Part shown: positions 28,866 to 29,973 of the stretch, in pieces | How positions within the stretch are numbered: position 1 is the first letter of the stretch | How the letters are laid out: each line of letters begins with the position of its first letter | Assembly: GCF_000760515.2 (NCBI RefSeq) | Contig: NW_013546711.1 | Span: forward strand, 1-64,000 | DNA from: Mitosporidium daphniae | Lineage: Eukaryota | DNA: 64,000 nucleotides | Reading direction: 5' to 3' | Made by a program: the position numbers and the translations under genes | Notes under the pieces: model-generated | The model's input: the letters and a program-made list of their open reading frames with translations, nothing else | The model's database searches: none | What the model was told of the DNA's origin: nothing

Positions 28866-28891
28866 GGATGGCTTTGAAAAGCCGTTTGAGA
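28866..28891 (-). promoter_or_regulatory. Histone mRNA 3' stem-loop-like element (H3)
   Basis: TCTCAAACGGCTTTTCAAAGCCATCC begins 15 nt after the H3 stop; identical to the element after H4. Confidence 0.8.
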
Positions 28892-28906
28892 AGGTAAATA
28901 GAGGAA

Positions 28907-29320
28907 TTACAAGTTGCGTTCACCACGAATGCGACGAGCAAGCTGGATATCTTTTGCCATAATGGTGACACGTTTGGAATGGATGGCGCAAAGATTCACA
29001 TCTTCAAAGAGAGAGACAAGATATGCCTCGGAGGCCTCTTGAAGGGCACCGATTGCGGAAGATTGAAAGCGGAGATCTGTTTTGAACCCTTGGGCAATCT
29101 CTCGAACAAGACGCTGGAAGGGAAGTTTGCGGATGAGAAGTTCAGTGGATTTCTGATAACGACGAATTTCACGAAGAGCAACAGTTCCAGGTCTGTAGCG
29201 ATGGGGCTTCTTGATTCCGCCGGTAGCTGGCGCACTCTTGCGAGCGGCCTTGGTAGTGAGCTGTTTGCGAGGTGCTTTACCTCCAGTGGATTTGCGGGCA
29301 GTTTGCTTAGTTCGAACCAT
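28907..29320 (-). CDS. H3: Histone H3 (intronless, slightly divergent)
   Basis: Near-canonical H3 sequence [19 protein letters not shown]...[21 protein letters not shown]. Confidence 0.99.
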
Positions 29321-29598
29321 GTTGAAAGTTTGTGTTGATACCGGGTAGCGATAAATTGATGGAGAGCCACTCCATTATATACTTATCAGAATGGCGGGTA
29401 AATCATATTTCGCCGCGCATTCTGATTGGCCGTGGCCCTGAAAGTGGCGCTAATGTCAATCAAATAGATGGGTATCTAACCCTATTTTTGGCAGTTTTCC
29501 CGCCAAACTTTACCCTATAAAAGAGACACTTAATAGGGGAACTTTACGATCGACTTGATCACCATTATTATCTAACAACTCAAACCCAAAACACACTG

Positions 29599-29910
29599 AT
29601 GTCTACTGGAGGAAAAGCAGGAAAAGGTCTTGGAAAGGGAGGAGCCAAGCGTCATCGAAAGATTCTTCGTGACAACATTCAGGGAATCACCAAGCCCGCC
29701 ATTCGTCGTCTTGCACGCCGTGGTGGTGTTAAGCGTATTTCTGGTCTTATCTATGAAGAGACTCGCACCGTTCTTCGCGTCTTTTTGGAAAACGTCATTC
29801 GCGACTCTGTCACTTATACCGAACATGCCAAGCGCAAGACAGTCACCGCAATGGACGTCGTTTATGCGCTTAAGCGCCAAGGTCGTACTCTCTACGGCTT
29901 TGGTGGATAG
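29599..29910 (+). CDS. H4: Histone H4 (intronless, divergent N-tail), head-to-head with H3
   Basis: [41 protein letters not shown]...[10 protein letters not shown]. Confidence 0.99.
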
Positions 29911-29947
29911 ATGCTTTCGCATCTTTTTTCATTGCGTTCAACGCAAC

Positions 29948-29973
29948 TCTCAAACGGCTTTTCAAAGCCATCC
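29948..29973 (+). promoter_or_regulatory. Histone mRNA 3' stem-loop-like element (H4)
   Basis: The same 26-mer as after H3, 37 nt after the H4 stop. Confidence 0.8.

What the first reader, a model, noticed from the sequence alone, without database searches (positions are those of the whole stretch)
28866..29973. Identical histone 3' stem-loop-like element after both H3 and H4 in a fungus-allied genome
Seen: the 26-mer TCTCAAACGGCTTTTCAAAGCCATCC occurs 15 nt after the H3 stop (28866-28891, minus) and 37 nt after the H4 stop (29948-29973, plus), while the rest of the two UTRs is unrelated. It folds as GGCUU-UUCA-AAGCC. Established: metazoan replication-dependent histone mRNAs end in CAAA-GGCUCU-UUUC-AGAGCC-ACCC, bound by SLBP and cleaved with U7 snRNP; fungal histone mRNAs are generally polyadenylated and lack it. 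The element here has the same GGC..GCC base, U-rich loop and CAAA/A.CC flanks but is one base pair shorter. Both genes are intronless in an intron-rich window. H3 has a purine-rich AGAGTAAAGG right after the hairpin and an AATAAA about 50 nt further on. Inference: a retained, variant SLBP-type histone mRNA 3'-end system at the base of the fungal lineage.
Basis: partly seen in the sequence, partly recalled or inferred. Interest (0 to 1): 0.88.

Follow-up and report, generated by a model that had tools for sequence, protein, structure and literature searches.

The report
Shortened histone hairpin in early microsporidian
Two neighbouring histone genes of a fungus-related parasite, likely Mitosporidium daphniae, are followed by the same 26-letter sequence, predicted to fold into a shortened version of the hairpin that ends animal histone messages; such hairpins are already reported in related parasites, but this one is altered and its usual binding protein is not listed for that species.

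Summary
An identical 26-mer lies 15 nt after the H3 stop and 37 nt after the H4 stop; the longest match among 230 other pairs of gene 3' flanks is 11 nt. It is predicted to fold into a 5-bp stem with a UUCA loop and is the only Rfam hit in the window (Histone3, 19.8 bits, cut-off 34). The broad claim is not new: a 2026 preprint reports histone stem-loops and SLBP in Rozella, stem-loops in Paramicrosporidium, and both in chytrids. What differs here: the genome is likely Mitosporidium daphniae (inferred), a microsporidian that the preprint's main text does not name; the stem lacks one pair; loop position 3 is C, a change that greatly impairs human SLBP binding; no downstream element is shared; and a published Pfam table lists the SLBP domain in Rozella and Paramicrosporidium but not in M. 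daphniae. Best reading: a remodelled histone stem-loop still under selection, likely read by a diverged, unannotated SLBP. Rival: SLBP is lost and another factor reads it. H2A/H2B, SLBP and the mRNA ends could not be tested.

The parts
28907..29320 (-). Histone H3 gene, one ORF, 137 codons; A31 with fungal-type SAIG at 87-90
28866..28891 (-). 26-mer after H3; hairpin core 28870-28883 (5-bp stem, UUCA loop)
   Evidence: Rfam Histone3 16.6 bits
28856..28865 (-). Purine-rich tract after the H3 element, containing the poly(A)-signal variant AGTAAA; no counterpart after H4
28812..28817 (-). AATAAA 49 nt after the H3 element; possible fallback poly(A) signal (inferred)
29321..29598 (.). 278-nt divergent spacer with TATA-like boxes (29376-29381, 29516), CCAAT (29429, -) and an E2F-consensus site (29496-29503, +)
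   Evidence: motif names recalled
29599..29910 (+). Histone H4 gene, one ORF, 103 codons
29909..29924 (+). Separate perfect 6-bp hairpin with UUUC loop overlapping the H4 stop codon; role unknown
29948..29973 (+). 26-mer after H4; hairpin core 29956-29969
   Evidence: Rfam Histone3 19.8 bits, the only hit in the window

Best explanation
The identical 26-mer after H3 and H4 is likely a remodelled descendant of the eukaryotic histone mRNA 3' stem-loop, predicted to fold into a 5-bp hairpin at or near the mRNA end and likely bound by a diverged SLBP that current annotation misses. Shown: sequence, position, restriction to the histone genes of this window. Inferred: descent from the stem-loop; the simplest route is loss of two U from the U run that spans stem and loop. 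Read in the usual 5+16+5 frame (TCAAA CGGCTT TTCA AAGCCA TCC), it keeps AAA at 3-5, the G7-C20 pair five pairs below the loop, the top U-A pair and loop U1, opens pair 6-21, and has C at loop 3. The protein would therefore need a changed loop pocket. The shared sequence stops at position 24, where a trimmed animal histone mRNA ends, so the hairpin would be the terminal part of the message. It would coordinate H3 and H4 mRNA stability and translation with S phase. Cleavage would not depend on a shared U7-pairing element; read-through H3 transcripts may be polyadenylated after the AATAAA.
For: 26 identical nt in otherwise unrelated flanks against at most 11 nt in 230 control pairs. Best Rfam family at both copies and the only Rfam hit at E<=10 in 64 kb. 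Position 15 and 37 nt after the stops, near the ~26 nt of Rozella and 30 nt of animals. G7-Arg181 is described as the only base-specific hydrogen-bond contact, and two 5' adenines plus one 3' adenine suffice for binding (PMC10388802, passages); G7 and the adenines are present. The same paper says the trimmed end lies three nt beyond the stem, matching where identity stops. Both closest outgroups in the table, P. saccamoebae and R. allomycis, have PF15247 and stem-loops, so the ancestor probably had the system. Zeros in that table can be false: R. allomycis shows 0 for the CPSF73 C-terminal and symplekin C-terminal domains.
Against: PF15247 = 0 in the M. daphniae column, as in the 26 other microsporidia; 2 of 29 genomes have it. 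U-to-C at loop 3 'greatly impaired' human SLBP binding (PMC4604434, passages). Rfam scores 19.8 and 16.6 are far below the cut-off of 34, with E 0.076 and 1.1 on 5 kb and 0.98 on the whole window. A fold that keeps a UUUC loop is unfavourable (+0.6 kcal/mol). No shared HDE. H3's 15 nt is shorter than the 25-60 nt quoted for animals. The two copies are identical, so there is no covariation to prove the structure. The species name is an inference.
Confidence: 0.55

Rival explanations
1. SLBP is lost. The stem-loop-derived hairpin is kept because another factor reads it (an exonuclease of the Eri1 type, the cleavage/polyadenylation machinery or a new protein), and the changed loop reflects that switch.
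For: [quoted passage not shown] M. daphniae has 2 RNase T-type exonuclease domains, 2 SAP domains and 2 Cid1-family polymerase domains, none assigned to Eri1 here.
Against: G7-C20 and the 5' adenines, the SLBP determinants, are kept. The zero comes from one automated annotation of 2,840 genes, in a table with evident false zeros.
Confidence: 0.22
2. The element is a decaying relic. The two copies stay identical through gene conversion between inverted repeats about 1.06 kb apart, and the mRNAs are ordinarily polyadenylated.
For: The copies are inverted on the chromosome; H3 has AATAAA and AGTAAA downstream; the preprint scores microsporidia as almost exclusively poly(A)-signal-only; the genome has poly(A) polymerase, Fip1, CPSF73 and symplekin domains.
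Against: Identity stops sharply at both sides of the 26 nt that correspond to the known functional unit, with at most 7 nt shared elsewhere; conversion would be expected to spread into the flanks (inference). The next longest dispersed, non-tandem repeats in the window are 16-mers.
Confidence: 0.13
3. The 26-mer acts as DNA: a transcription terminator, a boundary site or the terminal inverted repeats of a mobile unit that carries H3-H4.
For: The copies bracket the gene pair in inverted orientation.
Against: No target-site duplication: the outer flanks end in ACTCT and begin with TATGA. The sequence best matches an RNA element specific to histone messages, and both copies are in the sense orientation of their gene.
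Confidence: 0.07

Closest known systems
Metazoan replication-dependent histone mRNA 3' stem-loop (Rfam RF00032) with SLBP, 3'hExo/Eri1, HDE and U7 snRNP
   Same: Position shortly after core histone stops, GG..CC base, 5' AAA, G7-C20, top U-A pair, U-rich 4-nt loop, 26-nt conserved block.
   Different: 5 pairs instead of 6 (or first pair open), C at loop 3, Rfam score below cut-off, no HDE shared by both genes, SLBP not shown.
Histone stem-loops of Rozella allomycis and Paramicrosporidium saccamoebae (bioRxiv 10.64898/2026.10.14.759114; Results, Discussion part 1, Methods 19, 27, 30 read; supplements closed)
   Same: Stem-loops close to the stop in lineages at the base of fungi, often together with a poly(A) signal.
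   Different: Those species have PF15247 and passed a 6+4+6 filter. The preprint describes microsporidia as having distant (~190 nt), poorly conserved hairpins and no detectable SLBP. Its filter keeps only 6-pair folds, and this element folds with 5, so it may have been dropped. 'Mitosporidium' and 'daphniae' occur 0 times in the main text.
Deviant stem-loops of Physarum polycephalum histone mRNAs (PMC8600027, passages)
   Same: Non-animal histone stem-loops with mismatched pairs and changes at SLBP-critical positions, coexisting with poly(A) signals.
   Different: Physarum has two recognisable SLBPs plus Lsm10 and Lsm11.

Membership tests
Histone 3' stem-loop (RF00032) / SLBP-U7 system | Lies shortly after the stop codon of core histone genes, sense strand | tested here: met
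   15 nt (H3) and 37 nt (H4) to the 26-mer; H3 is shorter than the 25-60 nt quoted for animals
Histone 3' stem-loop (RF00032) / SLBP-U7 system | Six-base-pair stem with four-base loop | tested here: not met
   5 pairs predicted; in the 16-nt frame pair 1 is C-A
Histone 3' stem-loop (RF00032) / SLBP-U7 system | G-C at stem position 2 preceded by adenines | tested here: met
   TCAAA then C, G7 paired with C20 at probability 1.0
Histone 3' stem-loop (RF00032) / SLBP-U7 system | U at loop positions 1 and 3 | tested here: not met
   Loop UUCA: U at 1, C at 3; L3C impairs human SLBP binding
Histone 3' stem-loop (RF00032) / SLBP-U7 system | Reaches the Rfam gathering score (34 bits) | tested here: not met
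   19.8 and 16.6 bits
Histone 3' stem-loop (RF00032) / SLBP-U7 system | Absent after non-histone genes | tested here: met
   No third match in 64 kb at up to 3 mismatches; none in 20 other gene flanks; window only
Histone 3' stem-loop (RF00032) / SLBP-U7 system | Present after H2A and H2B as well | tested here: inconclusive
   No genome held; scans and read laying gave no H2A/H2B locus
Histone 3' stem-loop (RF00032) / SLBP-U7 system | SLBP orthologue in the genome | tested here: inconclusive
   PF15247 = 0 in the published M. daphniae column, species inferred; not among 53 window ORFs scanned; no direct genome search possible
Histone 3' stem-loop (RF00032) / SLBP-U7 system | Shared purine-rich downstream element for U7 pairing | tested here: not met
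   Tract after H3 only; flanks share at most 7 nt outside the element
Histone 3' stem-loop (RF00032) / SLBP-U7 system | U7 snRNA, Lsm10 and Lsm11 in the genome | not testable with these tools
   No genome held; no U7 hit in the window; the table gives only a total of 11 LSM domains
Histone 3' stem-loop (RF00032) / SLBP-U7 system | mRNA ends 3-5 nt after the stem without poly(A) | not testable with these tools
   Only assembled contigs of runs guessed to be RNA were available

The most novel reading that the evidence does not exclude
This parasite, on the branch between Paramicrosporidium and the canonical microsporidia, has lost SLBP but keeps a sequence-constrained, re-shaped histone hairpin read by a different protein: a histone mRNA 3'-end system without SLBP, caught at the step where microsporidia abandoned the ancestral pathway.
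Probability: 0.22. Interest if true: 0.78.

Novelty: new variant of a known kind. Interest (0 to 1): 0.5.

Why it matters
The histone stem-loop is among the most rigid RNA elements known in animals. A version with one pair fewer and the key loop U replaced, yet identical after two genes, points to a reader protein that changed with it. Either outcome is informative: a diverged SLBP would show how the RNA-protein interface can be rewired, and no SLBP would mean a new reader. It would also qualify the current summary that microsporidia have only distant, degenerate hairpins, and suggest that 6+4+6 filters miss real variants. The broad finding (stem-loops at the base of fungi) is already described.

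Tried and rejected
Whole-genome search: no genome held. The scan was swamped by chance and is no evidence on distribution. Viral H4 loci: 0 of 17 had a GG..CC hairpin of 5 or 6 pairs within 120 nt of the stop, one without a usable stop. Attempts to get an SLBP query: a recalled short motif gave 0 hits in viral and prokaryote contigs; the Pfam family rang nowhere, controls included. Supplements of PMC6299283 (8 files) and PMC8371127 (9 files, one unreadable) had no SLBP entry. Expression: no RNA holder listed. In three runs guessed to be RNA, one study, H3 contigs 99% or more alike stop at 28901, 10 nt before the element, with no loose end, and H4 is not covered. I reject this as evidence: X1 and X3 also share identical ends at 32954-33110, so they may not be independent, and contigs cannot show RNA ends. 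In X4 and X5, which cover the locus in long contigs, no further contig was listed at either copy of the element (X5: 9 records laid; X4: bins 28797-28867 and 29933-30003 at baseline depth). Chance pieces of 19-20 nt were laid, but fewer than the roughly 13 expected at 19 nt, and a filter drops records, so this leaves open whether H2A/H2B carry an identical or a variant copy. Lack of a poly(A) signal after H4 is not distinctive: 6 of 20 other flanks also lack all nine hexamers, and some of those ends may be exon ends. Mobile-element reading rejected for lack of a target-site duplication. Lopez and Samuelsson 2008, Tan 2013, Marzluff 2008 and 2017, Williams 1995 and Michel 2000 were not held; I saw only their citations.

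Full report
Observation. The 26-mer is present exactly twice, at 28866-28891 (-) and 29948-29973 (+), with no further match at up to 3 mismatches and none in 100 shuffles. It follows a divergent H3-H4 pair by 15 and 37 nt. Outside it the flanks share at most 7 nt. Among 231 pairs of 22 gene 3' flanks in the window the next longest shared stretch is 11 nt, and the next longest dispersed non-tandem repeats in the window are 16-mers. The predicted fold is five pairs with a UUCA loop at -5.8 kcal/mol. Rfam's Histone3 model is the best family at both copies, 19.8 and 16.6 bits against a cut-off of 34, and the H4 copy is the only hit of any of 4227 families at E<=10 in the whole window, at E 0.98. 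The Rfam match alone is weak; the case rests on exact sharing, position and family together.

Anatomy. Two readings describe the same letters. Rfam aligns it as a canonical stem whose loop has lost two positions; loss of two U from a U run would give this (inference). In the usual 26-nt frame it reads TCAAA CGGCTT TTCA AAGCCA TCC, followed by TA or AG. In that frame AAA at 3-5, G7-C20, the top U-A pair and loop U1 are kept, pair 6-21 is open, pairs 8 and 9 differ, and loop 3 is C. [quoted passage not shown] Identity between the two copies stops at position 24, which fits a terminal element but does not show one. PMC4604434 (passages) shows that U-to-C at loop 3 greatly impairs human SLBP binding, and that a UUUA loop occurs naturally. 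A fold that keeps a UUUC loop is unfavourable. The purine-rich tract and the AATAAA follow H3 only, so a shared U7-pairing element is not supported.

Lineage. No genome was held. DBP2 is 62-65% identical to its best named fungal hits and Sse1 33-36%. In a tree of 33 of the 120 DBP2 hits, without a non-fungal outgroup, the window's protein falls in a supported clade of 7 otherwise unnamed sequences, apart from the chytrids, Mucoromycota and Dikarya sampled. Its H3 and H4 are in NCBI, UniRef and EukProt on contigs up to 1,022,311 nt, and Rozella's H4 is a different sequence. I looked up 14 Pfam families seen in the window in Table S4 of PMC12449221; 13 are listed. M. daphniae has 13 of 13, P. 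saccamoebae 11, R. allomycis 10, and the 26 other microsporidia lack at least six. The table holds no true fungi. The M. daphniae assembly (5.83 Mb, 10 contigs, N50 864 kb, 42.7% GC) fits the contig size and the window's 45% GC. Mitosporidium daphniae, filed under Microsporidia by NCBI, is therefore likely but inferred.

Prior knowledge. The preprint 10.64898/2026.10.14.759114 (abstract, all Results, first part of Discussion, Methods 19, 27 and 30, first part of references read; supplements closed) reports stem-loops after all four core histones of Rozella, after most in Paramicrosporidium, and SLBP in 124 fungal species. The preprint calls microsporidia the extreme case, with distant, poorly conserved hairpins and no detectable SLBP. 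It does not name Mitosporidium in the main text, keeps only six-pair folds and admits that non-canonical shapes may be missed. This element passes its first step with one mismatch but folds with five pairs. Searches for Mitosporidium + histone + stem-loop gave 0 papers; SLBP + Rozella gave only the preprint; microsporidia + histone mRNA + polyadenyl + stem-loop gave 4, seen as listings apart from the preprint, none of them about this species by title or abstract start. The library lacks most subscription papers.

The SLBP question. Table S4 lists PF15247 in 2 of 29 genomes, P. saccamoebae and R. allomycis, and 0 in M. daphniae. It is weak as proof of loss: it rests on one automated annotation of 2,840 genes, and the table shows zeros for conserved processing domains in Rozella. 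None of 53 window ORFs has the domain. I could not obtain an SLBP sequence to search with.

Mechanism and odds. Exact identity confined to the known functional unit, with unrelated flanks, is best explained by a sequence-specific reader. Because both outgroups keep SLBP and the element keeps G7 and the adenines, I favour a diverged SLBP with a changed loop pocket (0.55). SLBP loss with another reader is second (0.22); a non-SLBP binder of the stem-loop region is known in C. elegans (PMC12803260, passages). A relic homogenised by conversion (0.13) and a DNA-level element (0.07) are less likely. An E2F-consensus site in the spacer (1 of 9 in the window), with 2 E2F/DP domains and no KilA-N domain in M. 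daphniae, fits S-phase control but is only a motif match.

Not settled. H2A/H2B, relatives and transcript ends could not be read; the scans and read laying are given under Tried and rejected.

Verdict. Real, and it likely works like a histone 3' stem-loop. It fails three defining tests of the canonical family (stem length, loop U3, Rfam cut-off) and shows no shared HDE, so I file it as a new variant of a known kind, interest 0.5.

Noticed in passing
window 29909-29924 (+) and 29932-29946 (+): A perfect 6-bp hairpin with a UUUC loop and G-C at position 2 overlaps the H4 stop codon (-7.2 kcal/mol with flanks), and a second hairpin lies between it and the 26-mer. H3 has no equivalent. It has the canonical shape but a position a ribosome would cover.
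   Followed up: partly
window 29321-29598: The H3-H4 spacer holds an E2F-consensus site (29496, +), two looser ones (29401 -, 29409 +), a CCAAT box and TATA-like boxes for both genes; the likely species has E2F/DP and no KilA-N domain.
   Followed up: partly
window 28907-29320 (-): H3 starts with Val instead of the usual Ala, combines A31 with SAIG at 87-90, has G at 77 and ends in ERNL.
   Followed up: no
window 28835-28857 (-) and about 29975-30005 (+): Both elements are followed within 10 nt by a second predicted hairpin of unrelated sequence.
   Followed up: no
window 1241-3647 (-): Glutamine synthetase type III gene; the family is patchy in microsporidia (8 of 29 genomes).
   Followed up: partly
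window 6804-6856, 24132-24244, 60038-60201: Short tandem arrays with periods of 24, 28 and 23 nt.
   Followed up: no
window 25779-27278 (+) and 32139-33488 (-): Open frames of 499 and 449 codons with no Pfam match.
   Followed up: no
P0002/P0152, P0003, P0153, P0005-P0007, P0034: Unnamed relatives exist in ENA, Logan and JGI data, one on a 191,584-nt contig with DBP2 88% and Sse1 72% identical; their histone loci would test conservation.
   Followed up: partly
L089:240-322: A metagenome locus with two tandem histone-stem-loop-like hairpins and no histone ORF recognised in the 300 nt upstream.
   Followed up: no
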